Positions 4,350 to 49,261 of a DNA stretch of 64,000 nt are shown one piece after another. Source of the stretch: a candidate division WOR-3 bacterium (GTDB lineage Bacteria; Hydrothermota; Hydrothermia; Hydrothermales; JAJRUZ01); contig JBDRZP010000007.1 of the NCBI GenBank assembly GCA_039804025.1, forward strand, positions 2,719-66,718. Direction: 5' to 3'. The number at the start of each line of letters is the position of its first letter. The first letter of the stretch is position 1. The position numbers were made by a program, and so were the translations under genes. The notes under the pieces are model-generated. The model searched no databases. It was not told the DNA's origin and was given only the letters and a program-made list of their open reading frames with translations.

Positions 4350-4529
4350 ATGAACATTTCAAAAATAATTTTTATACTTTCCCTTATTACTTTTATAATA
4401 GCAATTGTTTTAAAACTTACAGGCACTGAATTCCCTCATCTTTTTAAACCTTATACCTACCTGAAAGGGACCTGGACATTACTTTTATTTTCTATTAGTT
4501 ACCATTTGATTTTTGAAAAGGGGAAATAA
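4350..4529 (+). CDS. small hydrophobic membrane protein (59 aa), below the ORF-track length cutoff
   Basis: ATG with SD (AAGAGGTtaaaaaATG) and the conserved upstream motif; translation MNISKIIFILSLITFIIAIVLKLTGTEFPHLF... has one clear TM helix. Confidence 0.4.
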   Translation: MNISKIIFILSLITFIIAIVLKLTGTEFPHLFKPYTYLKGTWTLLLFSISYHLIFEKGK

Positions 4530-4556: not shown

Positions 4557-4955
4557 GTGAATAAAGACACTTTAATTTTAGGTGTTGAAGAATTTGTTGA
4601 ATTACAGAAATTGCTTGATGATTTTACATACAGAGCAAACACACATTCTTCAATGCTTTCTACCCTTTCAGGACAATTACTTGTTTCTTCAGGTTTTAAA
4701 ACTCCCTTTAATCTACTTGCCATATCAGCATTACTTGCAGGGATTTTTCAAAGCACAAGAGAATTGGCAAGAATAATAGGAGAAAAAAATTTTGTAACTT
4801 TTTTTCAGGAAGGTAATAGCTGGAATATATATTACACCCTGGTTGGGGAAGACCTGCTCCTTACCACCTTTTTTGATGATAGAACTATACTGGGAATGGT
4901 AGAAGTTCAGGCAAAAAAACTTGCAAAAAAGATAAATGAACTTTTGAAAAAATGA
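4557..4955 (+). CDS. roadblock/LC7 (MglB-like) domain protein
   Basis: 132 aa; size and pattern (LILGVEEF...LAISALLAGIF...GNSWNIYYTLVGEDLLLTTFFD) fit the roadblock/LC7 fold; first gene of a coupled operon. Confidence 0.5.
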   Translation: MNKDTLILGVEEFVELQKLLDDFTYRANTHSSMLSTLSGQLLVSSGFKTPFNLLAISALLAGIFQSTRELARIIGEKNFVTFFQEGNSWNIYYTLVGEDLLLTTFFDDRTILGMVEVQAKKLAKKINELLKK

Positions 4956-6826
4956 CCCTTTTAAATCCAAGATTTACCTTTAAAAACTTTGTTGAATATA
5001 AAGGGAACAGAATGGCAAAAAGAGCCCTTGAAACCATAATAGAGGATCCACTTGTTTTCAATCCAGTCTTTATATACTCAGAACCAGGAATGGGTAAAAC
5101 CCACCTTGTAACTGCTCTTACACACAGATTAAGAGAAAAAAACATTAAGGACCTTTTTCTTATACCAAAAGAATTTGAAAAAAATTATGAAAAAATATAC
5201 GATTTTAAAAAGGGATTTTTAATCATTGATAATTTTGAAAATTTTTCAAAAATAAAAAGTGAAATAATTGAGGAGTTCACGAATAATTTTGAAATACTTC
5301 TTGCGAATGAGGTTGAAATAATTCTCTCTTCCTCAATTCCCTATAATGAATTAAAGGACCTACCTTTCGAACTTTTATCAAGGATAAAAGGAGGCCTTTT
5401 AATAGAAATATTGCCACCTGATGAAGAAGATATTAAAATCATTATAAAAGAGAAACTAATTAAAAGAGGAATAGAATTAGAGGAAAGATTTATTAATTTG
5501 ATTTCAAGGAAAAATTACAAAAATATAAGAGAAATAGAAGGTGATATAAATAAAATTTTTTTAAGGTTTATTTCAAAAGAAAAAATTGAAGAAAAAGATA
5601 TAGAAGAAATAACAGGAATATCACTTCCTATACTCTTCTTTTCAGATATAATACCTGAAATTGAAAAAAGCCTTGAAAAATTAGAAGTAGTTGCAAGGGA
5701 AGAGGAAGCTTTAAAAACAGCCTTAAAGGAAAAAATTTATATATGGGAAATGAAGGGATTTAAAACTGATAGACTCAAAAAACTTATAGGAGTAAAAGAC
5801 TTGCAGATTTTAAAAGAAGAATACAGAAAATTTATCAGCGATGTTACAAAACTGATTGAGTATCAAAAAATTTATGGTGAAATAGGTGTTCAAGATATAG
5901 AAATTGAAAAAGCCCTTTTTGATCCTGATAGGGTTCTTGAGGTTGAAAAATGGATAGAAGAGATAAAAAGCAGTGTTTTAAAGAAAGAGGAACCAATAAT
6001 TCTAGAAGAAGCTATAAAGGAATCTGAAGAAACTGAAGAAATTGAAGAAATCAGTACTACAGAAGAAAAAAAAGAAATTGAAGAAATTATAGAAGTAAAA
6101 GAAGAGGAAGAAGTATTTATAATTGAGTCTGATTATAACAGAGATGTTCTTGAAGAAATAAAAAAACAAGCAAGAGAAGGTAAACCTGAGATTTTACTTA
6201 TCTTTTCTCAGGGAAGGAGGGGACTTTCAACTCATCTTCTTTATGCTTATGAAATAAATAAAGAAAAGAAAAAAGTTTTTTACCATTCAAATGACATATC
6301 AGATTTATTCTTTGAAGACGAAAGTAAACTTAATACAATTTTTAAAGATTATAATTTTATTGTAATAGATGATGCAGAAATATTTTTTGATGTGGAGGAT
6401 TTAAGAGATAAAATTTTACCTTTAATTATAGAAGAAAAAAATAATGGGAAAAAATTTTTAATAGGAATAAAGAAAAATCCTGAAGAAATCTATTTACCGG
6501 AGGAATACAAAAAAGTATTTGAGTCTTCAAAAAATGTTTCCTTAAAAAAACCAGATAGAAAAATACTTGAAGAAATTTTAAATGAAAAAATAAAAAAAGA
6601 AAACTTGAACCTCGATGAAAATCTAAAAGAAGAAATTCTTAATAGAGAGTTTTTTGATTTAAAAGAATTTGAAGATTATCTTAAGGAAACACAGAAAATA
6701 ATTGAAAATAGAGTAAAAAAAGAGGAAATTAAAATAAGTCTAAAGGGAAACTCAGCCAATGAGAAAAGTAATATAATTTTTGATATTGAAATAATAGAAG
6801 AAAGAATTTTTGAGGACTACCCATGA
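4952..6826 (+). CDS. DnaA/Hda-family AAA+ ATPase-like protein with a second degenerate AAA+-like module and no DnaA domain IV
   Basis: N-terminus LNPRFTFKNFVEYKGNRMAKRALETIIEDPLVFNPVFIYSEPGMGKTHLVTALTH matches the DnaA AAA+ box (NPxYTFdnFVvG..N..A......Npl.NPlFiYG..GlGKTHLl.Ai); Walker B-like FLIIDNFE; second module ILLIFSQGRRGLSTHLLYA...FIVIDDAE; E/K-rich linker between; start overlaps upstream stop (ATGA). Confidence 0.6.
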   Translation: MTLLNPRFTFKNFVEYKGNRMAKRALETIIEDPLVFNPVFIYSEPGMGKTHLVTALTHRLREKNIKDLFLIPKEFEKNYEKIYDFKKGFLIIDNFENFSKIKSEIIEEFTNNFEILLANEVEIILSSSIPYNELKDLPFELLSRIKGGLLIEILPPDEEDIKIIIKEKLIKRGIELEERFINLISRKNYKNIREIEGDINKIFLRFISKEKIEEKDIEEITGISLPILFFSDIIPEIEKSLEKLEVVAREEEALKTALKEKIYIWEMKGFKTDRLKKLIGVKDLQILKEEYRKFISDVTKLIEYQKIYGEIGVQDIEIEKALFDPDRVLEVEKWIEEIKSSVLKKEEPIILEEAIKESEETEEIEEISTTEEKKEIEEIIEVKEEEEVFIIESDYNRDVLEEIKKQAREGKPEILLIFSQGRRGLSTHLLYAYEINKEKKKVFYHSNDISDLFFEDESKLNTIFKDYNFIVIDDAEIFFDVEDLRDKILPLIIEEKNNGKKFLIGIKKNPEEIYLPEEYKKVFESSKNVSLKKPDRKILEEILNEKIKKENLNLDENLKEEILNREFFDLKEFEDYLKETQKIIENRVKKEEIKISLKGNSANEKSNIIFDIEIIEERIFEDYP

Positions 6827-8400
6827 GAGGTTCTCTTAAAGAGGTGCCTTTTTCTGATGTAGTTCAGTTAATGGTTATGGGTAAAAAAACAGGAAGGTTA
6901 TCAGTAACAAATGGAGAAGATTTTTTAGAACTATATTTTAAGGGGGGAATAGTAATATATGGTAAAATGGTTAATAGACCTGAAAGAATAGGGGAAATTC
7001 TTTTAGCAAAAGGGATAATTGATGAGGAAAAGTTAAAAGAAGCCAAATCACTTGTTGACAAAGGAAAACCAAATATAGGAAGTGCTCTTTTAGAACTTAA
7101 TGTTCCAGAAAACGAAATTAAAAAAGCCTACGAAGAGGAAATTAAAAAATTTGTTGCCAATGCAATTTCTTGGAATGATGGATATTTTAACTTTGAACCT
7201 GATGAGTTTCCAAAGGAAAAACCCATTGTTTCTATTGACCCTTCTTATCTTCTTTTAGAATCTGCAAGAACCTTTGATGAATGGCGAAAAATAGAAGATA
7301 TTATTCCATCTTTAGATGAAATATGTATTTTAAAAGACAAAACCTATGTGCCAAGAGATGAAAAAGAAGCTAAAATTATTGAAAGGATTGATGGAAAAAA
7401 AACTGTAAAAGAAATTTTAGAGGAAACAGGTGAAAATCTCTTTGACCTTGCTGAGACTTTTAAAAATCTCCTCTTAAGAGAGGTTATAGAAACAAAAGAA
7501 AAAATTGAAAAGGAAGAAGTTTCAAAAGCAAAAATTCTTGAACATATAAACTTAGGGTATGCCTTTCTAAAAACAGGATTATTTGAAGAGGCTGAGAGAG
7601 AATTTAAAAGACTCAATGAGCTTGCTCCCAATAAACCAGAAGGTTATTTTTATTTAGGACTTCTTTCTATTTATAAAAAGGAGTTCGAAAAAGCAATTTC
7701 TTATTTAAATGAAGCATTAAAATTGGACCCCCTTAATCCAAAAATACTTAACAATTTGCTTTATATTTACCTCGAAACTAACAGGTTAGAGGAAGCAGAA
7801 AAAATTATAAAACAATTAAATGAAATTAAAATTGATGATGAGAGATTCTTACTTAATAAGGCAATTTATTTTGAAAAAATTGGGGAAAAAGAAAAGTCAG
7901 AGGAAATAATAAGAGCATTAATGAAGGAAAAATCTTTCTTAAAAACACCTTATATTCTTCTTGCTCAGAAACTTTATAATGAAAAAAAGTTTCTTCAGGT
8001 TATAGAGATACTTTCAATAATAAAAGGATATGATCCGAAAAATCCTGAGGTTAATTATGGTCTCGGTTTATCATACAGAGCCTTAGGAAAAATAAAGGAA
8101 GCTGAAGAATTTTTGAAAAATGCAATGAAACTATCTCCATCAAATATAAAGTATAAACTCGCCCTTGCTGATTTTTATTATGAAAAGGGAAAATTTGATG
8201 AATGTAAAAATCTATACACACAGGTTTTATCAATTGATAAGCATAACAAGGAAGCCTTATTCAGAATGGGAAATATTTATTTAAAAGAAGGTAAATACGA
8301 AAATGCTCTTAAATATTTTGAAGAGATCTTAAAAATTGAACCTGAAAACAGAGTGGTAAAAAGAAATGTTGAAATTATCAGAAAAACTATTAATGTTTGA
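6823..8400 (+). CDS. DUF4388 (PATAN-like) domain plus TPR-repeat protein
   Basis: N-terminus VPFSDVVQLMVMGKKTGRLSVTNGEDFLELYFKGGIVIY is typical of DUF4388; C-terminal half has multiple 34-aa TPR units (AEREFKRLNELAPNKPEGYFYLGLL..., AISYLNEALKLDPLNPKILNNLLYIY...); ATGA overlap with upstream gene. Confidence 0.55.
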   Translation: MRGSLKEVPFSDVVQLMVMGKKTGRLSVTNGEDFLELYFKGGIVIYGKMVNRPERIGEILLAKGIIDEEKLKEAKSLVDKGKPNIGSALLELNVPENEIKKAYEEEIKKFVANAISWNDGYFNFEPDEFPKEKPIVSIDPSYLLLESARTFDEWRKIEDIIPSLDEICILKDKTYVPRDEKEAKIIERIDGKKTVKEILEETGENLFDLAETFKNLLLREVIETKEKIEKEEVSKAKILEHINLGYAFLKTGLFEEAEREFKRLNELAPNKPEGYFYLGLLSIYKKEFEKAISYLNEALKLDPLNPKILNNLLYIYLETNRLEEAEKIIKQLNEIKIDDERFLLNKAIYFEKIGEKEKSEEIIRALMKEKSFLKTPYILLAQKLYNEKKFLQVIEILSIIKGYDPKNPEVNYGLGLSYRALGKIKEAEEFLKNAMKLSPSNIKYKLALADFYYEKGKFDECKNLYTQVLSIDKHNKEALFRMGNIYLKEGKYENALKYFEEILKIEPENRVVKRNVEIIRKTINV

Positions 8401-9163
8401 TTTAAAAAGTATAAAAGAAATAATACTTGAAAAAACAGGTATTGATTTATCCTATTACAGAGATAGTTACCTTGAAAGAAGAATAAGAGTAAGGATGAGG
8501 AAAAGCGGTTTTTCAAATTTTCTCGATTATATTGAAAAACTGGAAAGTGATTTTGAAGAAAGAAAAAAATTTATAGATGAAATAGGAATAAATGTATCAT
8601 ACTTTTTCAGAAATAAAAATACCTTTGAAGAAATAAGAAGGTTAATTATACCTGAGTTAAGAAATAGAAAAACAATTTATATATGGAGTGCTGGATGTGC
8701 CTCTGGAGAGGAACCCTATTCTTTAGCCATAATTTTAAACGAGGAAAAAATTGAAAACTACAAAATATTTGCAACAGATATTGATAGTGAAATAATTGAA
8801 AAGGCAAAAGAAGGGATTTATTTTCCTGATAAGTTTATTGAAACACCTAAGGAATTTATTGAAAAATATTTTTTTAAAATAAATGGAAAATATAAAATAG
8901 TTGAGTATTTGAAAAAAAATATTACATTTTTTCTTCATGATGTAATAAAAAAACCACCACTTTTTAATTTTGACCTCGTTCTTTGCAGAAATGTTGTTAT
9001 ATATTTTATTAAGGATAAACAAAGAATTGTATTCGAAAATCTATATAATAGTCTGAAAAAAGGGGGGTTTCTTGTTCTTGGTAAAACAGAATTCCTTCCC
9101 TTTGAATTTAATGATAAATTTGATTACATTTCAAAATCTGAAAGAATATTGAAAAAATTATGA
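8366..9163 (+). CDS. cheR: CheR-type protein-glutamate O-methyltransferase (alternative start at 8393)
   Basis: all-alpha N-domain (FFRNKNTFEEI) plus SAM-MTase motif IYIWSAGCASGEEPYSLAI, the canonical CheR signature; overlaps the upstream gene end. Confidence 0.7.
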   Translation: MLKLSEKLLMFDLKSIKEIILEKTGIDLSYYRDSYLERRIRVRMRKSGFSNFLDYIEKLESDFEERKKFIDEIGINVSYFFRNKNTFEEIRRLIIPELRNRKTIYIWSAGCASGEEPYSLAIILNEEKIENYKIFATDIDSEIIEKAKEGIYFPDKFIETPKEFIEKYFFKINGKYKIVEYLKKNITFFLHDVIKKPPLFNFDLVLCRNVVIYFIKDKQRIVFENLYNSLKKGGFLVLGKTEFLPFEFNDKFDYISKSERILKKL

Positions 9164-10980
9164 AAGAAGAAAAATTTTTTATTCCTGTTTTGGATACAAA
9201 TTATGAGGAAAGTTACAATTTAAGTTATCCAGAATGGAGAATAAAATTTGAGAAATTATTACAGGAAATGGAAAAGGGAAATCTAAGGTATATATACTTA
9301 GGAGCAAACACTTCCTTTTTCCTTAGATTTTATAAAGAAAACATTTTAGAAGAAATTAAAATAAACCTTCCCCTTAGATTAAAGAAAATTGGTTTAAACA
9401 CACTTTATTACTTTATTCCAGTAAATGTTATTGATTCCTTTTCTTTGATTTTAAACTTTAAAATTATTTTTGAAGAATTGAAGGAAAGTTTTTCAGGAGA
9501 AAGAACAGTTTATTTGCCTTATATAAATAAACTTCCTAAAGGATTTTTAGCACTTTTAAAGGGATTTGGCATAGAATTCATATTTTCAAGAGTTCCTGTA
9601 AAAAGACCCTACTTAATAGTAAATGATATTGAAAATGAAATAAAAATAGTTAATGTTTCTTCTGACTCAAAAATTGTATTCCTTGATTCCTTTCTAATAA
9701 AAGAGGATATTAGTAAAAATTTATTCTCCATTGAAGAAATAACATCAAGTATTCCTGATAAGGGTGAATTGTATGAATTTAAATCAGAAGTCAAAATAAA
9801 GAAAAGTTTTCCTTATTTTAAAAAGCTTGAAGAAACTATTTTTAAATACCATATTTTAAACATAGTATTAAAAATTGAAAATCCCAATATTTCAAATTAT
9901 TATATTAAAGAAAAAATAAAAAATTTTTTAACCCTCTATAATTCAGAAAATATCGAACTTTTAAAAGAAGAAATAAGGGAAATAAAGCACTATGGTAAAA
10001 AGTTAAAAGAAGATTTTCTTGATAATAGTAAAAAATTATCAGTATTCAATCCTTTACCCTATAAATTTAATTATTACAGAATAATAAATAACAAACTTTA
10101 TAAGGCAGAAGCAAAGCCTTTTTCCTTTTCAGAATTGAAAGAAGAAGAATCCTATGAAAAAAATCTGGATTTTAGAATTTATAATAGAGGTAACATAAAA
10201 TTTTATGAACTTTTAATTCTTACAAAATTAATTGGTGAAAAAGGTGAACTTAAAGGTGGAATTTATGAAGAAGAAGTTATAAAGGAAAACTTTATTAAAA
10301 CTAAATCAAAATTAAGATTGAGTGATAAATCTTACGATTATTCAATTACATTAATTCCTCATGAAAATCTTTTAAAAATAAGAGGAAAACTAAAAAATAT
10401 AAATAAATGTGAAATTTTAATAGGGAGTGAAAAAAATTTAAATATTAGAGAATTTTCCCTCTTTGAGTTAGAGGAATTGACTCTTGAGAAAACCTATTCC
10501 GGTTTTCTTATTATTGATGGTGATAACAGATATCTTATAAAAACAATACCTGGAATCGGTGTTAAAAAATATAATAATACCTTGAAACTTATTTTTGAAG
10601 GAAAGGTAAGCCTTGATATAAAGAAAATTTCTGAATCTTTAATCCTTGAGTATATGAAGTATAAATACAAACCCATTATTTTTGAAGGCTCGCCTAAAAA
10701 GGAACTTTCATCAATTTTTGAAATAAAAAATGAAGATACAAATTTTATTTATATGGATGTTAAAGAAAATATGCTTTATATATACCTTTATTCAGATGAA
10801 AAAGATAATATAAAAATTCTTTTTAAGGGAAAACCTCTTGAAGCCTTTATTTTTGACTTAAAGGCTAATAAAAAACTTGATAAAGTTATGATTAGGGATA
10901 GATGGGTAATAATACCCCCAAAAAAGGGAATTTTCTGTATTGGAGTTGACATAAAAACTTTTCCCTTTTCAATATTTTAA
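9160..10980 (+). CDS. hypothetical protein, K/E/N-rich, no recognisable domain
   Basis: 606-aa ORF translationally coupled (ATGA) to cheR and overlapping the M28 gene start by 1 nt. Confidence 0.4.
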   Translation: MKEEKFFIPVLDTNYEESYNLSYPEWRIKFEKLLQEMEKGNLRYIYLGANTSFFLRFYKENILEEIKINLPLRLKKIGLNTLYYFIPVNVIDSFSLILNFKIIFEELKESFSGERTVYLPYINKLPKGFLALLKGFGIEFIFSRVPVKRPYLIVNDIENEIKIVNVSSDSKIVFLDSFLIKEDISKNLFSIEEITSSIPDKGELYEFKSEVKIKKSFPYFKKLEETIFKYHILNIVLKIENPNISNYYIKEKIKNFLTLYNSENIELLKEEIREIKHYGKKLKEDFLDNSKKLSVFNPLPYKFNYYRIINNKLYKAEAKPFSFSELKEEESYEKNLDFRIYNRGNIKFYELLILTKLIGEKGELKGGIYEEEVIKENFIKTKSKLRLSDKSYDYSITLIPHENLLKIRGKLKNINKCEILIGSEKNLNIREFSLFELEELTLEKTYSGFLIIDGDNRYLIKTIPGIGVKKYNNTLKLIFEGKVSLDIKKISESLILEYMKYKYKPIIFEGSPKKELSSIFEIKNEDTNFIYMDVKENMLYIYLYSDEKDNIKILFKGKPLEAFIFDLKANKKLDKVMIRDRWVIIPPKKGIFCIGVDIKTFPFSIF

Positions 10981-11717
10981 TGATAAAGGATTCAATTTTG
11001 ATTTTTTATATGAATTTTTTAATGTCAATTGGACCAAGAGTTCCGGGAACTTTTGCTCATGAAAATTTAAGAAAATTTCTCTTAAAGGAATTTGAAAGAA
11101 TGGGATTTAAATCTGAGATAGATTCTTTTTATGAAGATGGGTATAAATTTTTTAATTTAATATTTAAAAAGGGAAAAGGAAATTTCATACTTCTTGGAAC
11201 CCACTATGATACAAAGCCTGGTATAGAAGGTGCAAATGATTCAGGTTCAGGTGTTCTTTTACTTTTATATTTGGCAAATTTACTTAAAAATACTCATAAA
11301 AATTTTCTATTTGTCTTCTTTGATGGGGAAGATTTCGGTGATAATGCACCTCTTTACGGTTCAAAACATTTTGCAAAAACAAAAAATTATAAAATTGAAT
11401 GGGGAGTTATTTTTGATATGATCGGTGACAAAAACCTTGAAATTTTTATGGAAGGTTTTTCTTATGAATTAGCTCCAGATTTAACCTTAAAGATTTTTGA
11501 TTTTGCAGAAAAAAGGAAAAAGGATTTTATGTTCAAAAAAGTAAAACATTATATAATTGATGACCATTTACCCCTTCTAAAGAAAGGGGAAAAGGTTATT
11601 CTTTTAATTGATTTTGACTACCCTTACTGGCACACAGAAAAAGATACATGGGATAAGATAAGCATAGAAAATATAAAAAAATTAGGGGAATTCTTTTTTG
11701 AATATTTAAATGAATAA
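10980..11717 (+). CDS. M28-family zinc peptidase (aminopeptidase/glutaminyl-cyclase-like)
   Basis: metal-ligand blocks LLGTHYDTKP, GANDSGSGV, FVFFDGEDFG characteristic of peptidase M28. Confidence 0.6.
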   Translation: MIKDSILIFYMNFLMSIGPRVPGTFAHENLRKFLLKEFERMGFKSEIDSFYEDGYKFFNLIFKKGKGNFILLGTHYDTKPGIEGANDSGSGVLLLLYLANLLKNTHKNFLFVFFDGEDFGDNAPLYGSKHFAKTKNYKIEWGVIFDMIGDKNLEIFMEGFSYELAPDLTLKIFDFAEKRKKDFMFKKVKHYIIDDHLPLLKKGEKVILLIDFDYPYWHTEKDTWDKISIENIKKLGEFFFEYLNE

Positions 11718-11754: not shown

Positions 11755-12627
11755 ATGGAAATAACATTATTATTTTTTTCAATATTTTTAAAAGGGGAAC
11801 TTCTTTTAAAAGACTCCATTCCTTTAAAGGATTATAAAGTAACATTTTATGAACTTGACTCTGCTCTTTCACTTATTGATTCCTCTTTCACAAAAACTGA
11901 CCGAGAGGGAAAGTTTTTATTCAAAAATGATAGAAAGGGAATATATATTGTGAAAATTAACTATCAGGGTATAAGATACAGAACTGATCCAATACTTAAG
12001 GATGATGATAAAATAAGGTTAAGTGTCTATGACACTGTTTCAAATTATGAGCAAATGGTTTTGCAGAGAGCACATATTGCTTTTATACCATCACCTGGAT
12101 TAATTCAGGTAATTGAAGTTTACAACTTTTTTAATGCTCATAACAAAACAGTTAAAAGAGAATTTAGAATACCTCTTCCTCCTAATGCTACACATATTTT
12201 TTCTCCACAGGGTGTTCTTCCTTTTGAATTTAAACTCTTTGAAAATTCCTTTATATATAAGGAAGGGTTTAAACCTGGGTTAAAAACAATTTCTTTGCTT
12301 TATCATCTCCCCTTTGACAGGATTAAATTTGAAAGAAAAATACCCTTTATAACAAATGAATTTCTTGTTATGCTACCAAAGGAACTTGAATTAAAAACAA
12401 GGATGAATTTTGAAAAAGAAAATTTACAAACACCACAGGGAAGCTTTTATGTTTATTCCTTTAAAAATTTAAAGGCTAACGAAATTTTATCTTTTGAAAT
12501 TAAAGTCAAAAAAGGTGAAATGTTAAAGGATTTTATTCCACCTTTTCTTTTATTAATTTTGTTTTTAATATTTTTGTTTTTTATTTTTAGAAAAAAATGG
12601 AAGAAAAGGGAAGTTATCTCAGAGTAA
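11755..12627 (+). CDS. membrane-anchored protein with a carboxypeptidase-regulatory-like (prealbumin-like) beta-sandwich domain and C-terminal TM helix
   Basis: TDREGKFLF...GIYIVKINYQG motif typical of CarboxypepD_reg domains; C-terminal FIPPFLLLILFLIFLFFIFRKKWKK anchor. Confidence 0.4.
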   Translation: MEITLLFFSIFLKGELLLKDSIPLKDYKVTFYELDSALSLIDSSFTKTDREGKFLFKNDRKGIYIVKINYQGIRYRTDPILKDDDKIRLSVYDTVSNYEQMVLQRAHIAFIPSPGLIQVIEVYNFFNAHNKTVKREFRIPLPPNATHIFSPQGVLPFEFKLFENSFIYKEGFKPGLKTISLLYHLPFDRIKFERKIPFITNEFLVMLPKELELKTRMNFEKENLQTPQGSFYVYSFKNLKANEILSFEIKVKKGEMLKDFIPPFLLLILFLIFLFFIFRKKWKKREVISE

Positions 12628-13244
12628 TTGATTTAAAAAAAATTTTTAGAAAAACTTATGTTTTAAAAAATATAAATTTTGAAATAAAAGAAAAAGGTCT
12701 TTATCTATTTATTGGTGACAACGGTGCGGGTAAAACAACTCTTTTTAAAATTCTTTCCTTTTTACTTTTCCCCTCAGGTGGAGAAATATTTTACATGGAA
12801 AAAAAAATAAGAGACAATCAGGAAAAAATTTTAAAAAATATAGGCTTTTCAACTCATAATCCCTTTCTTTATCCTGACTTAACCTGTCTTGAGAATCTGG
12901 AATTTGCATCAAAATTTTATAATATAAAAAAAGAGGTAATTTTTGAAATTTCTGAAATTTTTGAAACAAGTGAGTATCTCCGCAAAAAAGTAAAGGAACT
13001 TTCAAGAGGTCAGCTTCAGAGGATTTCCTTAATAAAATCAATGCTCCATGACCCTCTATTTTTATATCTTGATGAACCTTTTAATGCACTTGATAAAAAG
13101 GGAGTAAAAATTCTTGAAGATTATATCATTAAAAATCTTGATAGAAAAATAATCTGTATATCAAGTCACACCCATTCTGATATTTTTGAAAGGAAAAGAA
13201 AAGCCTATTATTTAAAAAAAGGTGAAATTATCAGAGAGGAATAA
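12597..13244 (+). CDS. ABC transporter ATP-binding protein (short, CcmA-like), no adjacent permease
   Basis: Walker A GDNGAGKTTL, signature LSRGQLQRISL, Walker B LYLDEP; overlaps upstream ORF by 31 nt. Confidence 0.75.
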   Translation: MEEKGSYLRVIDLKKIFRKTYVLKNINFEIKEKGLYLFIGDNGAGKTTLFKILSFLLFPSGGEIFYMEKKIRDNQEKILKNIGFSTHNPFLYPDLTCLENLEFASKFYNIKKEVIFEISEIFETSEYLRKKVKELSRGQLQRISLIKSMLHDPLFLYLDEPFNALDKKGVKILEDYIIKNLDRKIICISSHTHSDIFERKRKAYYLKKGEIIREE

Positions 13245-19410: not shown

Positions 19411-22044
19411 ATGAATTTTTTATTTTTATTCTTTTTTATATCTCAAATGAGTGAAGGTTTAAAAATAAACTTTCATACAGCAAGTTTTGAGCCAATTACT
19501 GAAGGTGTCCCTATATTCTCTTCTCAGTTGGATGGGAATTTTAATCCAGGTTTAAATTATGTAGTTATACAGTTTTCAGAAATCCCGACTCCAGAAGAAA
19601 GAAAAAATATTGGTGCAAGTTATGGTATTAAATTTACTCCCTGGTATATCCATGAGAATGCTTTTATTGTAAGTTTCGTTTCAGACAACCCATTAAAAAA
19701 GATAGAAGAAATAAAGGAAATAAGAAATGTGCGAAGTGTCTTTCTTTACAAACCAGCTTTTAAATTTACGAAAGATGCCTGGGAACTATTTACTACACAA
19801 CCTGATTTAAGAGACAAATTTTATGTTCAGGTTTTTCACGATTCTTTACTAATGGATGCTGTAAATCAGGTTATCAATCTTGGAGGTGAAATATTATTCA
19901 TCGGAAAAAGAGATTTAGAAGAGGCAAAACATCTTGCAAGATTTGGATTTATAATAGAAGCAGGGAAACTCGCACAGATTGCAAATAATAGTGGAGTTTT
20001 TGTTATCGGAAGATTATATGAAAAGAATGTTTTTAATGATGCTTCAAGATGGGTAATTCAGACAAATCTCTCAGTTGATACATCTATATGGGCTCGTGGA
20101 ATTAGAGGTGAGGGAGTTATAATAGGGCATAATGACAACGGACTTGACCCAAACCATTGTTTCTTTAATGGAACTATAGACGGTCAGCCAAAAATTGTAA
20201 GACTTTTTGATTATAACGGTGGAGGTTTTGCAAACGGGGATCATGGAACTCATACTGCAGGAAGTGCACTTGGTGGAACTGATCAGCAGAGCACAAATAA
20301 ACAATATAAAGGAATGGCTAAAAGGGCAAGACTTGTATCACAGGAACCATTAGCTCCTGACCCTCCTGGCTTTTACAGTGTCCTTCTTGACGCATATAGT
20401 GAAGGAGCAAGAATACATACAAATAGTTGGGGTTATCAATGTAATGCTATTTTAAATTATTGTGGAACAGGTGGATACGAATTAGAGGCTCTTGATATTG
20501 ATAATTTTGTATGGAATTATATTGATATGACCGTATTTTTTGCAGCAGCAAATGGTGGAGATTGTGTATCCCCTTGGACTTGTGGAAATGTAAGAAGAAT
20601 ATCCTGTCCTGCAACTGCAAAAAATGATATAACAGTTGTTGCAACAAGAAGAGCAAACAATCAGGAATATAAGACAACATGGAGTTCCTTTGGGGCACCG
20701 AATAATCGTGGTGATTACAGGTTTGGAACGGATTTAACTGCCCCTGGTGAGAATGTCAACTCTGCTGATAATAATACAGCATGTGGTATTGTTCAAATGT
20801 CAGGGACATCAATGGCAACTCCAACAGCAGCAGGGGCAGGAGCACTTGTTGTTCAATATTATAAAGAAGGATGGTATGGAAACGGAACAAAGAACTCTGC
20901 ACCTTCATGGAATCCCTCATCAGCACTTGTAAGGGCTACTCTTTTAGCATCTTGTAGGGATATGCTTTATGATGTTGATGATGATGAGTATGGACCAGCA
21001 AATTCAGGAGTCCCAAATATTTATGAGGGTGCAGGAAGAATAACTCTTGAAGATGCTTTGTGGTTTGGTGAGACAAGAAAACTTGCCTTTGTTGATGGTG
21101 ACTTACCATACGGAGATAATCAGTTTAATACTGGTGATTCAATTGTTTACACAATAAATGTTCTTGGAAGCTCTATACCATTAATAATTATTCTTTCATG
21201 GATTGATTATGTGGGGACAGCAAATACATATCCAGTTATAGTTAATAACCTAAATTTAAAGGTGGTTGATCCTTCCGGAAACACATATAAGGGGAATGTT
21301 ACATCCAATGGATGGTCTGTTCCAAATACTGGCTCTTTTGATGCACTTAATACCTGGGAACTCTTCAAATTACAGAACCCTTCAACAGGGGAATGGAAAA
21401 TAATAGTTAAAGGTGCTAATATACCTCAGCCCAAGCCTGCAGGAATAAAATATCCTTTTGCAATTGTTGTCACAGGTAATTTTGACCAAATTTCAAAACT
21501 TGGAACTACTGAAAGTTTTCTTATTCTCTCTTCTTTAAAAGAAGGGATTCTTTTAAATCTTAACTTCTTTGAAAAAATTTCAGAAATTTTGATCTTTAAA
21601 AAGGAAGAAAAAGAGAAAAACTTCTCCCTTATTTTAAAAGAAGAAAACCCTTTAGCACCCTACAGATTTGTTGATAGGAATGTAAAAATCGGGAATACTT
21701 ATGAATATAAAGTGATGGTAATTTCAGGAAGCGGAAATCAGTGGTTTGGTCCAGTTTCAATAAAGTATGATTACTTAACAAGTGAAATCAAAGCTTTTTC
21801 ACAAATTTCCGGTTCAAAACTTAAGTTAAATCTATACCTTGAAGAAGAGGACGAAATAGAACTCTATCTTAAAGACCCCTCTGGTAGAAATGTTAAAAAG
21901 ATTCTTGAAAATAGATTTTCAAAAGGAAACCACTCCTTAGTTTTTGACCTTTCAAATTACAGAATACCAAGCGGAATTTATTTTCTGAATATTAAAGGTA
22001 AAAGTGGAATTGATTTCAAGATTAAAATAAGTGTTTTATACTAA
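19411..22044 (+). CDS. secreted S8 subtilisin-like serine protease with T9SS-type C-terminal sorting domain
   Basis: signal-peptide-like N-terminus; catalytic blocks GDHGTHTAGS (His) and MSGTSMATP (Ser); C-terminal ~80 aa (ELYLKDPSGRNVKKIL...GIYFLNIKGKSGIDFKIKISVLY) matches the Por/T9SS CTD pattern. Confidence 0.8.
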   Translation: MNFLFLFFFISQMSEGLKINFHTASFEPITEGVPIFSSQLDGNFNPGLNYVVIQFSEIPTPEERKNIGASYGIKFTPWYIHENAFIVSFVSDNPLKKIEEIKEIRNVRSVFLYKPAFKFTKDAWELFTTQPDLRDKFYVQVFHDSLLMDAVNQVINLGGEILFIGKRDLEEAKHLARFGFIIEAGKLAQIANNSGVFVIGRLYEKNVFNDASRWVIQTNLSVDTSIWARGIRGEGVIIGHNDNGLDPNHCFFNGTIDGQPKIVRLFDYNGGGFANGDHGTHTAGSALGGTDQQSTNKQYKGMAKRARLVSQEPLAPDPPGFYSVLLDAYSEGARIHTNSWGYQCNAILNYCGTGGYELEALDIDNFVWNYIDMTVFFAAANGGDCVSPWTCGNVRRISCPATAKNDITVVATRRANNQEYKTTWSSFGAPNNRGDYRFGTDLTAPGENVNSADNNTACGIVQMSGTSMATPTAAGAGALVVQYYKEGWYGNGTKNSAPSWNPSSALVRATLLASCRDMLYDVDDDEYGPANSGVPNIYEGAGRITLEDALWFGETRKLAFVDGDLPYGDNQFNTGDSIVYTINVLGSSIPLIIILSWIDYVGTANTYPVIVNNLNLKVVDPSGNTYKGNVTSNGWSVPNTGSFDALNTWELFKLQNPSTGEWKIIVKGANIPQPKPAGIKYPFAIVVTGNFDQISKLGTTESFLILSSLKEGILLNLNFFEKISEILIFKKEEKEKNFSLILKEENPLAPYRFVDRNVKIGNTYEYKVMVISGSGNQWFGPVSIKYDYLTSEIKAFSQISGSKLKLNLYLEEEDEIELYLKDPSGRNVKKILENRFSKGNHSLVFDLSNYRIPSGIYFLNIKGKSGIDFKIKISVLY

Positions 22045-26160: not shown

Positions 26161-28182
26161 TTACCTTGTGATTATAACTTTAAAAGGTTTATTCTCTTTG
26201 TTATATTTTAAAAAGTAAATGCCAGAGCAAATTCCATCAATGGATAATGAAATTCTTGAATTTGATTTGCTCACTCTATAAGTTCTAACTTTCTCACCAA
26301 GAACATTATAAAGTTCAAATTGACTTATTTTATCTTTAATCAAATGATTTGATTCAATCTTTATCTCATTTTTAACAACATTACCTAATAACCTGAATTC
26401 TTCTTTTGAAAAATCGTTTTCCTCTATTCCATATCCATAAAACTTGTAAATCTGTAAACCAGCATAATAATCAGCTACATAGGCGTAATTTTCTGAAACA
26501 TAAACACCTTCTGCCCATTCAGGTGTCTGATAGTATCCTACTTCATATGGTGAAGAAGGATTTGAAACATTTATTATCCTTAAACCAGAATTCCCATCAG
26601 CAACATAGGCATAATTGTCTGAAACATAAACACCCTGTGCATAGCCAGGTGTATCATAATATCCTACTTCATATGGTGAAGAAGGATTTGAAATATCTAT
26701 TATCCTTAAACCAGAACCTCCATCAGCAACATAGGCATAATTGCTCGAAACATAAACACCCTGTGCATAGCCAGGTGTATCATAATATCCTACTTCATAT
26801 GGTGAAGAAGGATTTGAAATATCTATTATCCTTAAACCAGCCCTCTCATCAGCAACATAGGCATAATTGCTCGAAACATAAACACCTAATGCAGCTCCAG
26901 GTGTATCATAATATCCTACTTCATATGGTGAAAAAGAATTTGAAACATCTATTATCCTTAAACCAGAACCCTTATCAGCAACATAGGCATAATTGCCCGA
27001 AACATAAACACCTATTGCATCGTCAGGTGTATAATAATATCCTACTTCATATGGTGAAGAAGGATTTGAAATATCTATTATCCTTAAACCAGCATAATAA
27101 TCAGCAACATAGGCATAATTGCTTGAAATATAAACACCTAATGCAGCTCCAGGTGTATCATAATATCCTACTTCATATGGTGAAAAAGGATTTGAAACAT
27201 TTATTATCCTTAAACCAGCCCTCCCATCAGCAACATAGGCATAATTGCTCGAAACATAAACACCTATTGCATCGTCAGGTGTATAATAATATCCTACTTC
27301 ATATGGTGAAGAAGGATTTGAAACATTTATTATCCTTAAACCAGAATTCCCATCAGCAACATAGGCATAATTGTCTGAAACATAAACACCCTGTGCAGCT
27401 CCAGGTGTATCATAATATCCTACTTCATATGGTGAAGAAGAATTTGAAACATCTATTATCCTTAAACCAGAACCTCCATCAGCAACATAGGCGTAATTGC
27501 CTGAAACATAAACACCCCATGCCCAGCCAGGTGTATAATAATATCCTACTTCATATGGTGAAGAAGGATTTGAAACATCTATTATCCTTAAACCAGAAAT
27601 TCCATCAGCAACATAGGCGTAATTGCCTGAAATATGAACACCTAATGGATAGCCAGGTGTATTATAATATCCTACTTCATATGGTGAAGAAGGATTTGAA
27701 ACATTTATTATCCTTAAACCAGCATAATAATCAGTAACATAGGCGTAATTGCCTGAAACATAAACACCATAAGAATAGCTAGGTGTAAAATAATGACCAA
27801 GTTTGATTGGATTTGACGCATCTGTAACATCCCATATTTCAAGTCCACCTTGTTCTGTTGCAATATACAATCTCTTATTTACTGGTTCATAAAAAAGTCC
27901 CCAAACAAATCCCCTTGTATAAATTTTTTCTGAAACTTTTTGAGGATTAGAAGGATTTGAAACATTTAAAATATATACACCACCACCTGAACCCAAAAAT
28001 ACAAGGTTCCTTGAAGGATCAAAAGAAACTGCAAAAGAAGGACCAAATGGCCAGTTGCCTATGAATCGGACATTCATTGAATCAAAACCTGCCTTTACTT
28101 CAATTTCAGAAGGAGGAAACAATTTCCAGGGCTTATAATTAATTCCGGTATTTATCAAATTTATAAGTATGAATACCAACAT
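26161..28182 (-). CDS. secreted LVIVD-repeat (beta-propeller-like) protein with T9SS-type C-terminal sorting domain
   Basis: about 11 copies of a 40-aa unit [41 protein letters not shown] (LVIVD repeat pattern); signal-peptide-like N-terminus; C-terminus ...[20 protein letters not shown] is T9SS-CTD-like. Confidence 0.7.
   Translation of the reverse strand: [673 protein letters not shown]
26440..27790. repeat. about 11 tandem copies of a 120-nt unit (near-identical) encoding the LVIVD repeats
   Basis: recurring strings such as tattatccttaaaccag at 120-nt spacing (26573, 26693, 26813, ... 27653). Confidence 0.85.
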
Positions 28183-48229: not shown

Positions 48230-48232
48230 TGA

Positions 48233-49261
48233 TTATTTTACTTCCCTTAAATACCTTGCCGCCTCCTCAGGAGATATTGGATTTATATAAAAACCTGAAC
48301 CCCACTCAAAACCTGCAATATAAGTTATTCTTGGTATTATCTCAATATGAAAATGGTAATCAAGATGTATTGTCTCCCAATAATAAGGTCTTCCAGGTCT
48401 TGGTCTTATAACAGGGGATGTGTGAATTACAAAATTATAGGGGGGGTCATTTAAAAGAAGTTTAATTCTCAAAAGAACATCTTTTAAAACAATTGATAAA
48501 TCTTTTATTTCTTCATTATCCATCAAAGTAAAATCATGACTGTGTTTTAAAGGGAAAATCCATGTTTCAAAAGGAAAAGAAGAAGCATAAGGGCACCAGA
48601 CTAAAAATTTTTCAGTTTTGTATACAATTCTTTCACCTAAAGAAACTTCCTGGTCAATTAAATCACAGAATATACATCTTTCCTTTCTTTTATAATGTTC
48701 CTTTGCTGCCTCAAGTTCTGCAACCACTGCAAGAGGAATTATAGGAGTCGCAATAAGTTGAGAATGAGAATGATATAAAGAAGCACCAGCATCCTTTCCG
48801 TAATTTTTAAAAATTAAAATGTATCTGAATCTTATATCTTTTGTTAAATCTATATATCTTTCTTTAAAGGCTATAAGCACATTTTTTATATCATCATGAT
48901 TCATATCTTGAAGTTGAGTTTCATGGTTAGGTGTTTCAATGATTACCTCATGGGCACCTATTCCTGAAACATGATCAAAAAGCCCAACTCCCTTTCTCAT
49001 TAGTTCTCCCTCAATTCTTAAAGCTGGAAATTTATTAGGAACAACCCTCACTTTCCAACCTGGTTTATCTCTTTGTGTTCCCTCTTTTCTTATAGAAAAA
49101 ACCTCCTTCGGGGTTTTATCCTCATTTCCTTCACAGAAAGGACATGTATCCTTTGGGGGTATCTCTTCTTTTTCTCTTTGAAAATCTTTTGGTCTTAAAC
49201 CTCTTTCAGGAGAAATTATGGTCCACCTCCATCTTATAGGGTCATATCTTAATTCAGGCAT
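48233..49261 (-). CDS. galactose-1-phosphate uridylyltransferase-family (GalT-like HIT) nucleotidyltransferase
   Basis: ELRYDPIRWRWTIISPERGLRPKDF...CPFCEGNE and HSQLIATP (HxHxQ-like) motifs. Confidence 0.7.
   Translation of the reverse strand: MPELRYDPIRWRWTIISPERGLRPKDFQREKEEIPPKDTCPFCEGNEDKTPKEVFSIRKEGTQRDKPGWKVRVVPNKFPALRIEGELMRKGVGLFDHVSGIGAHEVIIETPNHETQLQDMNHDDIKNVLIAFKERYIDLTKDIRFRYILIFKNYGKDAGASLYHSHSQLIATPIIPLAVVAELEAAKEHYKRKERCIFCDLIDQEVSLGERIVYKTEKFLVWCPYASSFPFETWIFPLKHSHDFTLMDNEEIKDLSIVLKDVLLRIKLLLNDPPYNFVIHTSPVIRPRPGRPYYWETIHLDYHFHIEIIPRITYIAGFEWGSGFYINPISPEEAARYLREVK

What the first reader, a model, noticed from the sequence alone, without database searches (positions are those of the whole stretch)
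4557..11717. Six-gene translationally coupled operon: roadblock/LC7 - DnaA-like double AAA+ - DUF4388/TPR - CheR methyltransferase - 606-aa orphan - M28 peptidase
Every junction in this run overlaps: ATGA at 4952/4955, 6823/6826 and 9160/9163, an 8-35 nt overlap at the cheR start, and a shared A at 10980. Co-translation as one unit is therefore very likely. The domain set resembles MglA/MglB-type polarity or signalling modules, where roadblock and PATAN-like DUF4388 domains usually accompany a Ras-like GTPase. Here the NTPase slot is filled by a DnaA-family AAA+ protein, and a CheR-type methyltransferase sits with no MCP or che genes anywhere in the window. I know of no described system with this composition. 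Acidic E-rich tracts in the AAA+ protein and the K/E-rich orphan are conceivable CheR substrates; that is speculation.
Basis: partly seen in the sequence, partly recalled or inferred. Interest (0 to 1): 0.75.

Follow-up and report, generated by a model that had tools for sequence, protein, structure and literature searches.

The report
MglB–DnaA-like ATPase–PATAN–CheR polarity operon
This is a real, conserved operon of an uncultured heat-loving bacterium (candidate phylum WOR-3) that joins a cell-polarity switch protein (MglB), a type-IV-pilus-linked adaptor (PATAN/TPR) and a chemotaxis methyltransferase (CheR) to an undescribed double ATPase derived from the replication initiator DnaA. It looks like a new variant of the signalling modules that tell bacteria which cell pole is the front.

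Summary
Six co-directional ORFs (4557-11717) overlap at every junction, and every domain call holds.

Comparative genomics changes the interpretation. The core MglB-like roadblock, tandem DnaA-like AAA+, PATAN/TPR and CheR recurs in the same order in about 37 species-level genomes: WOR-3, Stahlbacteria, some bins labelled Cloacimonadota, and Edwardsbacteria. AAA+ identity falls to 25-33%, and the flanking genes differ.

Most relatives also carry a true MglA GTPase just upstream, and CheD, CheB, a second TPR protein and an inositol monophosphatase downstream. The most distant relatives add CheW and MCP genes (L041, L045), or PilT (L039, L040).

So the AAA+ protein does not fill the GTPase slot. 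It is an extra, invariant partner of an MglA/MglB-PATAN polarity module tied to a chemosensory adaptation set.

The window's lineage is a reduced form:
- no adjacent mglA, cheD or cheB;
- a degenerate second P-loop;
- a lineage-restricted 606-aa ORFan and a glutaminyl-cyclase-like M28 gene.

The E-rich tract is not conserved and is an unlikely CheR target. A family-specific central helical domain and a C-terminal acidic/aromatic tail are conserved.

I found no published description of this composition. Verdict: real feature, new variant of a known kind, function inferred.

The parts
4350..4529 (+). 59-aa ORF with two predicted hydrophobic helices, 27 nt upstream of mglB. Possible first gene of the transcription unit.
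   Evidence: Read from the sequence. Called as a gene in public assemblies. 69-76% identical orthologues sit in the same position in L004, L010 and L011. Absent from distant relatives. No family hit on record.
4557..4955 (+). MglB-like roadblock/LC7 protein (132 aa).
   Evidence: Robl_LC7 22.8 bits. NCBIfam MglB 1.9e-12. M. xanthus MglB structures 6h5b_B and 6izw_B at E 1.6e-16 over aa 6-129. 47% identical to the L006 orthologue that sits next to mglA. Its stop overlaps the AAA+ start in 37 of 37 loci.
4952..6826 (+). 624-aa tandem DnaA/Hda-like AAA+ protein with no DnaA domains I, II or IV.
   Evidence: Bac_DnaA 9.6e-23 and TIGR00362 3.7e-41, below cutoff; no Bac_DnaA_C hit. AlphaFold model pLDDT 79.6. 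Best PDB matches are DnaA domain III (8bv3 TM 0.81, 30% id; 2z4r) and Hda 3bos. Family alignments.
4952..5623 (+). N-terminal AAA+ module (aa 1-224). Walker A GMGKTH. Walker B IIDN (DD in most relatives). Ser143-Arg144 at the DnaA box VII arginine-finger position. Arg193 at the sensor-2 position.
   Evidence: G48, K49 and R193 are invariant, and D93, S143 and R144 are at least 90% conserved, in 40 sequences. Assignment of these residues to DnaA/Hda motifs rests on my knowledge of the E. coli DnaA and Hda sequences.
5624..5977 (+). Family-specific central helical domain (aa ~225-342). Carries the signature E-K-I-Y-I-W-E-M-K-G-F ... L-x-E-L-Q-K-x-Y/F-G ... L-F-x-P-D. It is the most conserved part of the protein.
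   Evidence: K261, Y263, W265, M267, K268, G269, F294, L301, Q305, G309, E319 and F323 are invariant in 40 sequences. The best conservation windows are 261-280 and 301-320. Helices 234-267, 284-311 and 325-342 in the model. No Pfam family. No similarity to MCP signalling domains.
5978..6121 (+). Variable, disordered E-rich linker (aa ~343-390).
   Evidence: pLDDT below 50 for aa 343-387. Column conservation is 0-0.28, and the segment is missing from P0009, P0010 and P0016-P0024.
6122..6646 (+). Second AAA+ module (aa ~391-565) with a degenerate P-loop (GRRGLST, no lysine) and Walker B IDD.
   Evidence: Fold. Relatives with CheD/CheB keep GxGK/R[ST]. The window-type loci (window, L004, L010, L005, L012) have lost the lysine. 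A second Bac_DnaA hit is precomputed for distant orthologues.
6779..6823 (+). Conserved C-terminal acidic/aromatic tail (…FDIEIIEERIFEDYP), reached through a variable linker.
   Evidence: The motif [ILV][FIELW]E[ED]x[YFH] is at or within 10 residues of the C-terminus in every complete family member. A regex found it in 37 of 43. The six misses are three ORFs with no tail (two run off the contig end) and three that end ERIFEDH. The preceding linker varies in length and sequence.
6823..8400 (+). PATAN (DUF4388/PatA_N, aa 2-155) plus TPR (aa ~218-522) protein.
   Evidence: PF14332 1.1e-22 and many TPR models. 31% identical end to end with the L006 orthologue. Always immediately downstream of the AAA+ gene. 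The helical insertion aa 54-106 weakly resembles the N-terminal domain of the T4P ATPase PilF (E 0.01).
8366..9163 (+). CheR-type protein-glutamate O-methyltransferase (265 aa).
   Evidence: CheR_N 5e-15 and CheR 2.7e-53. B. subtilis CheR 5ftw at E 8e-49 and S. typhimurium CheR 1af7 at E 1.8e-27. R82, G110, E116, D138 and Y213 are at least 95% conserved in 37 orthologues. Overlaps the PATAN/TPR stop in 32 of 37 loci.
9160..10980 (+). 606-aa lineage-restricted ORFan. A real, conserved protein with no detectable family.
10980..11717 (+). M28-fold protein (245 aa), closest to bacterial glutaminyl cyclases. No signal peptide visible.
   Evidence: Peptidase_M28 5.6e-28. Best PDB hits are glutamine cyclotransferases 6qro (6.5e-21) and 4fuu. 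Linked to the module only in the window, L004 and L010.
11755..13244 (+). Co-directional 290-aa membrane/beta-sandwich protein and ABC ATPase. Probably co-transcribed, but not part of the conserved module.
   Evidence: Syntenic only in L004 and L010.

Best explanation
This is a reduced form of a conserved cytoplasmic polarity and signalling module of WOR-3 and related candidate phyla. Its logic resembles the Frz-MglA/MglB network of Myxococcus and the PATAN-regulator systems that steer type IV pili in cyanobacteria.

What the sequence comparisons show:
- A true MglB homologue is translationally coupled to a tandem DnaA/Hda-derived AAA+ ATPase.
- That ATPase is always followed by a PATAN/TPR protein and, in almost every locus, by CheR.
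- Relatives add MglA upstream and CheD/CheB downstream. Outgroup relatives add CheW and MCPs, or PilT.

What I infer:
1. MglB acts on an MglA encoded elsewhere in this genome.
2. The AAA+ protein has an N-terminal ATPase site that retains the Walker A/B, arginine-finger and sensor-2 positions of DnaA, but it has no DNA-binding domain. I propose it is an ATP-dependent, self-associating hub.
3. Its strictly conserved central helical domain and its tethered acidic/aromatic C-terminal peptide are partner-docking sites. The most plausible partner for the tail is the TPR domain of the next gene product, in an EEVD/TPR-like arrangement. The alternative is CheR, by analogy with the MCP pentapeptide.
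4. The PATAN domain is the output. By analogy with PixE and PixG it contacts the pilus motor (PilB/PilC) or another polar machine.
5. CheR, held near the TPR protein as in the fused TPR-CheR FrzF, methylates chemoreceptors encoded elsewhere and so tunes the input.

In the window's lineage, CheD, CheB, the second TPR protein and the adjacent mglA are gone from the locus. The second P-loop is dead. A lineage-specific 606-aa protein and a glutaminyl-cyclase-like M28 gene have been added, and their roles are unknown.
For: - The domain identities hold.
- The core recurs in about 37 species-level genomes at 25-68% AAA+ identity, in at least four different flanking contexts.
- Conserved gene overlaps: MglB->AAA+ in 37 of 37 loci, PATAN->CheR in 32 of 37.
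- mglA lies directly upstream in 18 distinct loci. It is 53-66% identical to M. xanthus MglA, with E 5e-67 to the solved structure.
- cheD-cheB lie downstream in about 30 loci, and the CheB receiver domain is intact.
- MCP genes lie in the same cluster in L041 and L045, with CheW in L041. PilT and an MCPsignal protein lie beside it in L039 and L040.
- The PATAN domain is documented to bind PilB1 and PilC and to be a sufficient output for pilus-based phototaxis (bioRxiv 10.1101/2021.06.11.447907).
- MglA and MglB genes are known to neighbour PATAN genes (PMC4316618).
- The only cultured WOR-3 strain is a non-swimming thin rod with pili (PMC12285271).
- The conserved central domain and C-terminal tail appear.
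Against: - No interaction, localisation or activity has been measured. All mechanistic steps are inferred from homology and gene order.
- No mglA, MCP, cheA, cheW or pil gene lies in this 64-kb window. I could not scan the rest of the genome.
- Pilus genes are adjacent in only 3 of about 37 loci, so the output could be something else.
- What a DnaA-type ATPase would do in such a module has no precedent.
- The tail-TPR docking is an analogy only.
Confidence: 0.55

Rival explanations
1. Non-MCP methylation system. CheR (with CheB and CheD in relatives) reversibly methylates a component of the module itself. Candidates are the AAA+ hub, whose C-terminal xΦE[ED]x[YF] tail would tether the enzymes as the NWETF pentapeptide does on chemoreceptors, or the PATAN/TPR protein. 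On this reading the module is a receptor-independent, ATP-driven adaptation device.
For: - cheR is glued to the AAA+-PATAN/TPR pair in nearly all loci, and in WOR-3 proper no MCP or CheW lies within +/-10 kb.
- The tail sits at the end of a variable linker, like a tether.
- In window-type proteins it reads IFEDY, IWEEL or VWEEY, close to known xWxxF pentapeptides (my recollection of those motifs).
- The MCPs encoded in the L041 cluster themselves end without such a peptide.
Against: - No conserved EE/QE pair with small flanking residues exists in the AAA+ or PATAN/TPR alignments.
- The central domain shows no similarity to MCP signalling domains.
- The E-rich tract is not conserved.
- Outgroup clusters do contain classical MCPs, and L041 also contains CheW.
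- The CheB receiver is intact, implying a CheA-type kinase.
- L029 keeps MglA-MglB-AAA+-PATAN without any cheR/D/B.
Confidence: 0.15
2. Replication or cell-cycle coupling device. The DnaA/Hda-like ATPase acts on DnaA, the nucleoid or the divisome, as Hda inactivates DnaA-ATP and as PatA binds divisome proteins. It would link chromosome replication or division-site choice to polarity cues.
For: - The N-terminal module is closest to DnaA domain III and Hda and keeps the arginine-finger and sensor-2 positions.
- The Walker B IDN of the window protein matches E. coli Hda as I recall it.
- PatA is reported to interact with the divisome (title of PMC7380572, listed; I did not read the paper).
- In L005 the module abuts ftsZ/ftsA, and in many relatives recJ lies upstream.
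Against: - There is no DnaA domain I or IV.
- By inspection there is no Hda-type clamp-binding motif at the N-terminus.
- ftsZ in L005 is convergent and is not conserved elsewhere.
- The invariant neighbours are MglB, PATAN/TPR and CheR, not replication genes.
- NCBIfam DnaA and Hda scores are far below their cutoffs.
Confidence: 0.12
3. Anti-phage or conflict system of the STAND-NTPase + TPR + peptidase type.
For: - Weak nSTAND_NTPase5 and nSTAND3 hits on the AAA+ protein.
- A TPR protein and a peptidase-fold gene lie in the same operon.
Against: - PADLOC gives only generic TPR, methyltransferase and ABC matches.
- The locus is syntenic and vertically conserved across a phylum, with housekeeping flanks.
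- The window composition profile showed no atypical GC at the locus, and no mobile-element genes appeared among the annotated ORFs.
- The NTPase is DnaA-clade, not STAND, by structure.
- The M28 gene is not conserved with the module.
Confidence: 0.03

Closest known systems
Myxococcus xanthus Frz chemosensory system coupled to the MglA/MglB polarity switch (with FrzF = CheR-TPR and TPR effectors such as SgmX)
   Same: An MglB homologue is present here, and MglA in relatives. A CheR methyltransferase is juxtaposed with TPR repeats. Relatives carry CheB, and outgroup relatives carry MCPs and CheW. The inferred job is to control which pole is active. (The coupling of Frz to MglA/MglB is taken from PMC3441718 and PMC4316618. 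FrzF and SgmX details are from my own knowledge.)
   Different: In Myxococcus the genes are dispersed; here they form one overlapping operon. No RomR, FrzZ or FrzE is seen. The TPR domain is on a PATAN protein rather than fused to CheR. Nothing in Frz/Mgl corresponds to the tandem DnaA-like ATPase. WOR-3 MglA proteins have Gln where M. xanthus has Arg53.
Cyanobacterial PatA-type (PATAN-REC) regulators of Tax/Pix chemotaxis-like systems
   Same: A PATAN domain acts as the likely output module, genetically tied to Che-type genes. The PATAN insertion resembles N-terminal repeats of pilus ATPases.
   Different: No receiver domain is fused to PATAN here. It carries about 300 aa of TPR repeats instead, so phosphorylation cannot be the direct input. 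An AAA+ ATPase and MglB are its obligate neighbours.
DnaA / Hda (initiator-clade AAA+ proteins)
   Same: The fold and motifs of the N-terminal module match: TM 0.81 to B. subtilis DnaA domain III, with Walker A, the box VII Arg and the sensor-2 Arg retained.
   Different: There is no domain I, II or IV. By inspection there is no clamp-binding motif. The AAA+ module is duplicated. A new central helical domain and a C-terminal tail are present. Scores fall below the curated DnaA and Hda cutoffs. The gene context is signalling, not replication.
Actinobacterial conservons (CvnA-D: kinase, MglB-like, unknown, MglA-like)
   Same: A conserved operon built around an MglB-like/MglA-like pair plus signalling proteins (PMC4316618).
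   Different: The partners are entirely different: no histidine kinase or CvnC, and instead AAA+, PATAN/TPR and CheR. The phyla are also different.

Membership tests
MglB (roadblock/LC7 GAP of MglA) | Full-length sequence similarity to characterised MglB | tested here: met
   E 1.6e-16 over aa 6-129 to M. xanthus MglB 6h5b_B and 6izw_B. NCBIfam MglB gives 1.9e-12 but only 47.6 bits against a cutoff of 200. Pfam Robl_LC7 gives 22.8 against 23.
MglB (roadblock/LC7 GAP of MglA) | A cognate MglA GTPase | tested here: inconclusive
   No mglA in the 64-kb window or in the +/-10 kb flanks of L004, L005 and L010-L012. Orthologous MglB genes in 14 relatives sit 31-164 nt downstream of a true mglA. The rest of this genome could not be searched.
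DnaA / Hda family | AAA+ domain III with initiator-type motifs | tested here: met
   Bac_DnaA 9.6e-23. Foldseek TM 0.81 to 8bv3. Walker A, D93, S143-R144 and R193 are conserved.
DnaA / Hda family | DnaA domain IV (DNA-binding helix-turn-helix) and domain I | tested here: not met
   No Bac_DnaA_C or DnaA_N hit at E <= 0.1. The TIGR00362 match covers only profile positions 104-318 and scores 141.6 against a cutoff of 343.9.
DnaA / Hda family | Hda: single AAA+ module with an N-terminal beta-clamp-binding motif | tested here: not met
   The protein has two AAA+ modules. Its N-terminus, MTLLNPRFTFKNF, is the start of DnaA domain III with no QL[SD]LF-like motif (by inspection; the motif is from my own knowledge). 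TIGR03420 scores 82 bits against a cutoff of 194.8.
CheR protein-glutamate methyltransferase | CheR_N plus the CheR SAM-binding domain above curated thresholds, with conserved catalytic positions | tested here: met
   55.4 and 180.7 bits, both against a cutoff of 27. E 8e-49 to B. subtilis CheR. R82 and Y213 are at least 95% conserved. Their equivalence to S. typhimurium R98 and Y235 is from my own knowledge.
CheR protein-glutamate methyltransferase | An MCP substrate in the same organism | not testable with these tools
   None in the window. Present in the clusters of L041 and L045. A whole-genome scan of the source MAG was not possible.
Complete chemosensory (Che) pathway | CheA, CheW and MCP encoded with the adaptation enzymes | tested here: not met
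   Absent from the window and from WOR-3 loci within +/-10 kb. MCPs appear only in the outgroup loci L041 and L045, with CheW in L041. No CheA was seen anywhere in the fetched DNA.
PATAN (DUF4388/PatA_N) domain proteins | PF14332 above threshold, with the helical insertion | tested here: met
   80.8 bits against a cutoff of 25. Residues 2-155 span a 122-position model, so an insertion is present. The insertion weakly resembles PilF N-terminal repeats.
PatA-type response regulator | PATAN fused to a receiver (REC) domain | tested here: not met
   No Response_reg hit. The C-terminal part is TPR.
M28 peptidase / type II glutaminyl cyclase | M28 fold above threshold | tested here: met
   98.4 bits against a cutoff of 21.3. 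Closest solved proteins are bacterial glutamine cyclotransferases. Cyclase versus peptidase activity was not resolved.
Known anti-phage defence systems | Match to a PADLOC system protein set | tested here: not met
   Only generic TPR, methyltransferase and ABC hits.

The most novel reading that the evidence does not exclude
The tandem DnaA-derived ATPase is a new kind of cytoplasmic signalling scaffold that takes the place of a chemoreceptor array. It would tether CheR (and CheB/CheD in relatives) through its C-terminal acidic/aromatic peptide. It, or its PATAN/TPR partner, would be the methyl-accepting element. It would use ATP-dependent assembly to set MglA/MglB polarity. That would be the first non-MCP substrate system for CheR/CheB/CheD and the first initiator-clade AAA+ protein working in cell polarity.
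Probability: 0.12. Interest if true: 0.85.

Novelty: new variant of a known kind. Interest (0 to 1): 0.6.

Why it matters
MglA/MglB polarity switches and Che-type adaptation enzymes are well-studied paradigms. An obligate DnaA-clade AAA+ partner has not been described for either. Here that partner is translationally coupled to MglB in all 37 loci that have an mglB directly upstream, and to MglA in two others.

If the ATPase is a functional core component, it adds an ATP-driven element to a circuit so far understood as GTPase plus GAP/GEF plus phosphorelay. It would also show the replication-initiator fold recruited to signalling.

The family supplies concrete handles for experiment: an invariant KIYIWEMKGF domain, a tethered tail, and natural variants with and without CheB/CheD, MglA or a live second P-loop. 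A WOR-3 isolate now exists in which these could be tested.

The finding also bears on whether CheR, CheB and CheD can act outside classical receptor arrays.

Tried and rejected
1. E-rich tract as CheR substrate: rejected. The tract is disordered, variable and absent in orthologues.

2. Central domain as a cryptic MCP-like methyl-accepting hairpin: rejected. hhalign probability is 0.5% against MCP signalling domains, and there are no conserved EE/QE pairs.

3. The 606-aa orphan.
- Homologue search found only seven close relatives.
- A profile search of 1.84 billion representative proteins found nothing beyond its own cluster.
- No PDB sequence hit.
- The 599-aa protein in the same position in L005 and L012 shows no significant similarity (BLAST E 0.042, hhalign E 0.11). 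The weak match is co-linear at the C-terminus.

4. Defence-system reading: PADLOC was negative.

5. Is mglA elsewhere in the Hydrothermales genome? The homologue search with a WOR-3 MglA was saturated by hits of at least 75% identity, and none could be traced to the source assemblies. Unresolved.

6. Literature on chemotaxis or pili in WOR-3: it gave only the isolate's morphology. My first literature query was uninformative because it matched on word starts.

7. Promoter and terminator scans: matches are at chance level in this AT-rich DNA (56 found against 45.9 expected). They were not used.

8. Rfam and tRNA scans of the window: nothing found.

Full report
**Observation.** The window is AT-rich (GC about 0.25-0.36). 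It comes from a candidate division WOR-3 / Hydrothermales metagenome-assembled genome, because identical proteins occur in GCA_965648955.1 and GCA_039804005.1.

All domain calls hold:
- The roadblock hit is marginal in Pfam (22.8 against 23 bits). The protein nevertheless matches the solved M. xanthus MglB over its full length (E 1.6e-16).
- The 624-aa protein has an N-terminal Bac_DnaA AAA+ module.
- The 525-aa protein is PATAN (DUF4388/PatA_N) plus TPR.
- The 265-aa protein is a canonical CheR, with E 8e-49 to B. subtilis CheR.
- The 606-aa protein matches no family.
- The 245-aa protein has the M28 fold.

Among all window ORFs of at least 150 aa I found no MCP, Che, MglA or pilus gene. The neighbours are housekeeping genes such as gdhA, rtcA, ABC transporters, glycogen genes and a V-type ATPase subunit. 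The co-directional block probably begins at a conserved 59-aa two-TM ORF (4350-4529). It probably runs on through a 290-aa protein and an ABC ATPase to 13244, bounded by divergent gdhA and convergent rtcA.

**Conservation.** Homologues of the AAA+ protein fall into a compact family. I read neighbourhoods through the public gene calls. I then scanned one genome per GTDB species with the family's own motifs (YIW[EK]MKG[FY]). Finally I labelled ORFs by BLAST against reference members.

About 37 species-level genomes carry the family. They are labelled WOR-3, Stahlbacteria, Cloacimonadota (E29/E44 bins), Edwardsbacteria or unclassified. In every one of them the AAA+ gene is immediately followed by the PATAN/TPR gene. 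It is preceded by mglB, or in a few cases directly by mglA. cheR follows in all but L029 and the contigs that end before reaching it.

The orthologues are divergent. Window against L006 gives MglB 47%, AAA+ 28%, PATAN/TPR 31% end to end, and CheR 39%. The flanks differ: PFOR and ftsZ in L005, recJ and an inositol monophosphatase elsewhere. The association is therefore selected, not inherited synteny. MglB overlaps the AAA+ start in 37 of 37 loci, and PATAN/TPR overlaps cheR in 32 of 37.

**What the relatives add.** The common form, in about 30 genomes, reads: [148-aa protein, RecJ, MglA], MglB, AAA+, PATAN/TPR, CheR, CheD, CheB, 299-aa TPR protein, inositol monophosphatase.
- The GTPase is a genuine MglA. 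It scores E 5e-67 to M. xanthus MglA and has the TVPGQ motif.
- CheB passes NCBIfam's own cutoff. Its receiver keeps D13, D57, S87 and K109 in 30 of 30 sequences, which implies a cognate kinase.
- In the most distant members the cluster is larger. L041 (Edwardsbacteria) reads: TPR, PATAN/TPR, TPR-roadblock, roadblock, MglB, MglA, two unrelated genes, AAA+ (single module), PATAN/TPR, CheR, CheD, CheB, TPR, CheW, MCP, MCP.
- L045 also ends in an MCP. L039 and L040 have PilT and an MCPsignal-containing protein just upstream.

The window-type form occurs in the window, L004, L010 and L011. A sister form in L005 and L012 carries a different 599-aa protein. Both forms lack the adjacent mglA, cheD, cheB, the second TPR gene and the phosphatase. 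Each has a roughly 600-aa ORFan after cheR instead. The M28 gene, the 290-aa gene and the ABC gene are linked only in the closest relatives.

**Anatomy of the AAA+ protein.** The model (pLDDT 79.6) and the 40-sequence alignment give five parts.
1. An N-terminal AAA+ module, closest to DnaA domain III (TM 0.81, 30% identity to 8bv3) and to Hda. It has invariant GxGK[TS]H, Walker B D93, Ser143-Arg144 where DnaA has its box VII arginine finger, and Arg193 at sensor 2. The motif equivalences are from my knowledge of DnaA.
2. A helical domain (aa ~225-342) that is the best conserved part of the protein. It includes EKIYIWEMKGF, LxELQKxYG and LFxPD, and matches no family.
3. A disordered linker. It is E-rich in the window but absent from many orthologues.
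4. A second AAA+ module. Its P-loop is intact in the CheD/CheB-containing loci but has lost its lysine in the window-type loci (GRRGLST). The whole module is missing in L041 and L045.
5. A variable linker ending in a conserved acidic/aromatic peptide: EERIFEDYP, GELIEENF, EEIIWEEL or NEEVWEEY. This peptide is present in every complete member.

There is no DnaA domain I or IV. By inspection there is no clamp-binding motif.

**Interpretation.** The literature confirms that MglA and MglB genes neighbour PATAN genes (PMC4316618). It also shows that the PATAN domain is a sufficient output module that binds the pilus ATPase PilB1 and the platform protein PilC (bioRxiv 10.1101/2021.06.11.447907).

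The AAA+ protein, however, does not replace the GTPase. It coexists with MglA in at least 18 loci.

The lone CheR is a remnant of a CheR-CheD-CheB set, and that set sits with MCPs in the outgroup loci (with CheW in L041). The most economical reading is a Frz-like arrangement in which a chemosensory pathway tunes an MglA/MglB polarity switch:
- The output adaptor is the PATAN/TPR protein.
- The DnaA-derived ATPase is an additional, obligate hub.
- Its central domain and tethered tail are the obvious docking surfaces. The tail is equally reminiscent of EEVD-type peptides bound by TPR clamps and of the NWETF tether for CheR and CheB. Both analogies are from my own knowledge and are untested here.

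The only cultured WOR-3 bacterium is a non-swimming rod with pili (PMC12285271). That fits a pilus or polarity role, but pilus genes are adjacent in only three loci.

**Alternatives.**
- Self-methylation. I looked for MCP-like methylation sites in the module and found none, so this reading is possible but unsupported.
- Replication or division. This rests only on the DnaA/Hda fold and on scattered neighbours (ftsZ convergent in L005, recJ upstream elsewhere).
- Defence. PADLOC, vertical synteny and the fold all speak against it.

**Accessory genes.**
- The 606-aa ORFan is a real, conserved protein. It has no relative outside its own 50% cluster among 1.84 billion representative proteins. Its weakly modelled C-terminal beta-sandwich only generically resembles glycosidase accessory domains.
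- The M28 protein is closest to bacterial glutaminyl cyclases. Its linkage is recent.

**Verdict.** It is partly wrong on two points, the idea of the AAA+ as a GTPase substitute and the E-rich tracts as substrates. It is a new variant of a known kind of system. The notable novelty is a conserved tandem DnaA-clade ATPase with a private central domain and a tethered tail. Function remains inferred. The decisive tests are a whole-genome inventory of MCP, CheA, MglA and pil genes in carriers, complex prediction for the tail and central domain, and methylation and ATPase assays.

Noticed in passing
L006, L007, L014, L016, L018-L021, L026, L029, L031, L033, L037, L043 (mglA genes, e.g. L007:3217-3813): All 14 WOR-3 MglA proteins encoded next to the module have Gln at the position of M. 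xanthus Arg53, the intrinsic arginine finger as I recall it. The four outgroup MglAs (L040, L041, L045, L046) keep Arg. GTP hydrolysis in WOR-3 MglA may therefore work differently or need a residue supplied in trans.
   Followed up: partly
window 10980-11717: The 'M28 peptidase' is closest to bacterial glutaminyl cyclases in the PDB (6qro E 6.5e-21, 4fuu). It is about 65 residues shorter and starts without a visible signal peptide, so it would be a cytoplasmic cyclase-like protein.
   Followed up: partly
window 4350-4529: A 59-aa ORF with two hydrophobic helices lies 27 nt upstream of mglB. It is conserved at 69-76% identity in L004, L010 and L011 but absent from distant relatives.
   Followed up: partly
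window 6982-7140 (PATAN/TPR protein aa 54-106): The helical insertion of the PATAN domain weakly matches the N-terminal c-di-GMP-binding (GSPII-type) domain of the Thermus pilus ATPase PilF (E 0.01-0.2). This agrees with the literature remark that such repeats occur in pilus ATPase N-termini.
   Followed up: no
L005:14086-15885 and the orthologous split ORFs in L012: A different 599-aa ORFan occupies the same post-cheR position, with the same 4-nt overlap, as the window's 606-aa ORFan. Similarity is not significant but is co-linear at the C-terminus. The two may be extremely diverged homologues or independent acquisitions.
   Followed up: partly
L029: One WOR-3 genome keeps mglA-mglB-AAA+-PATAN/TPR followed directly by the inositol monophosphatase gene, with cheR, cheD, cheB and the second TPR gene all missing. 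This is a natural deletion showing that the polarity part can exist without the Che part.
   Followed up: no
L041:179-6379 and L045:2439-9230: Upstream of mglA in the outgroup loci lies a second PATAN/TPR protein, a roughly 900-aa TPR protein, a TPR-roadblock fusion and extra roadblock proteins. This is a much larger polarity gene set than in WOR-3.
   Followed up: no
window 26161-28182 (- strand) and 19411-22044: An LVIVD-repeat protein with a T9SS C-terminal sorting domain, and an S8 subtilase. The organism probably has a type IX secretion system, as expected for an FCB-related lineage. A 443-aa TTG ORF on the opposite strand (26406-27737) is probably spurious.
   Followed up: no
window 44863-54074: A glycogen metabolism cluster: GH77 4-alpha-glucanotransferase, branching enzyme, a GalT-like protein, GH57, glycogen synthase and a glucose-1-phosphate adenylyltransferase-like protein.
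   Followed up: no
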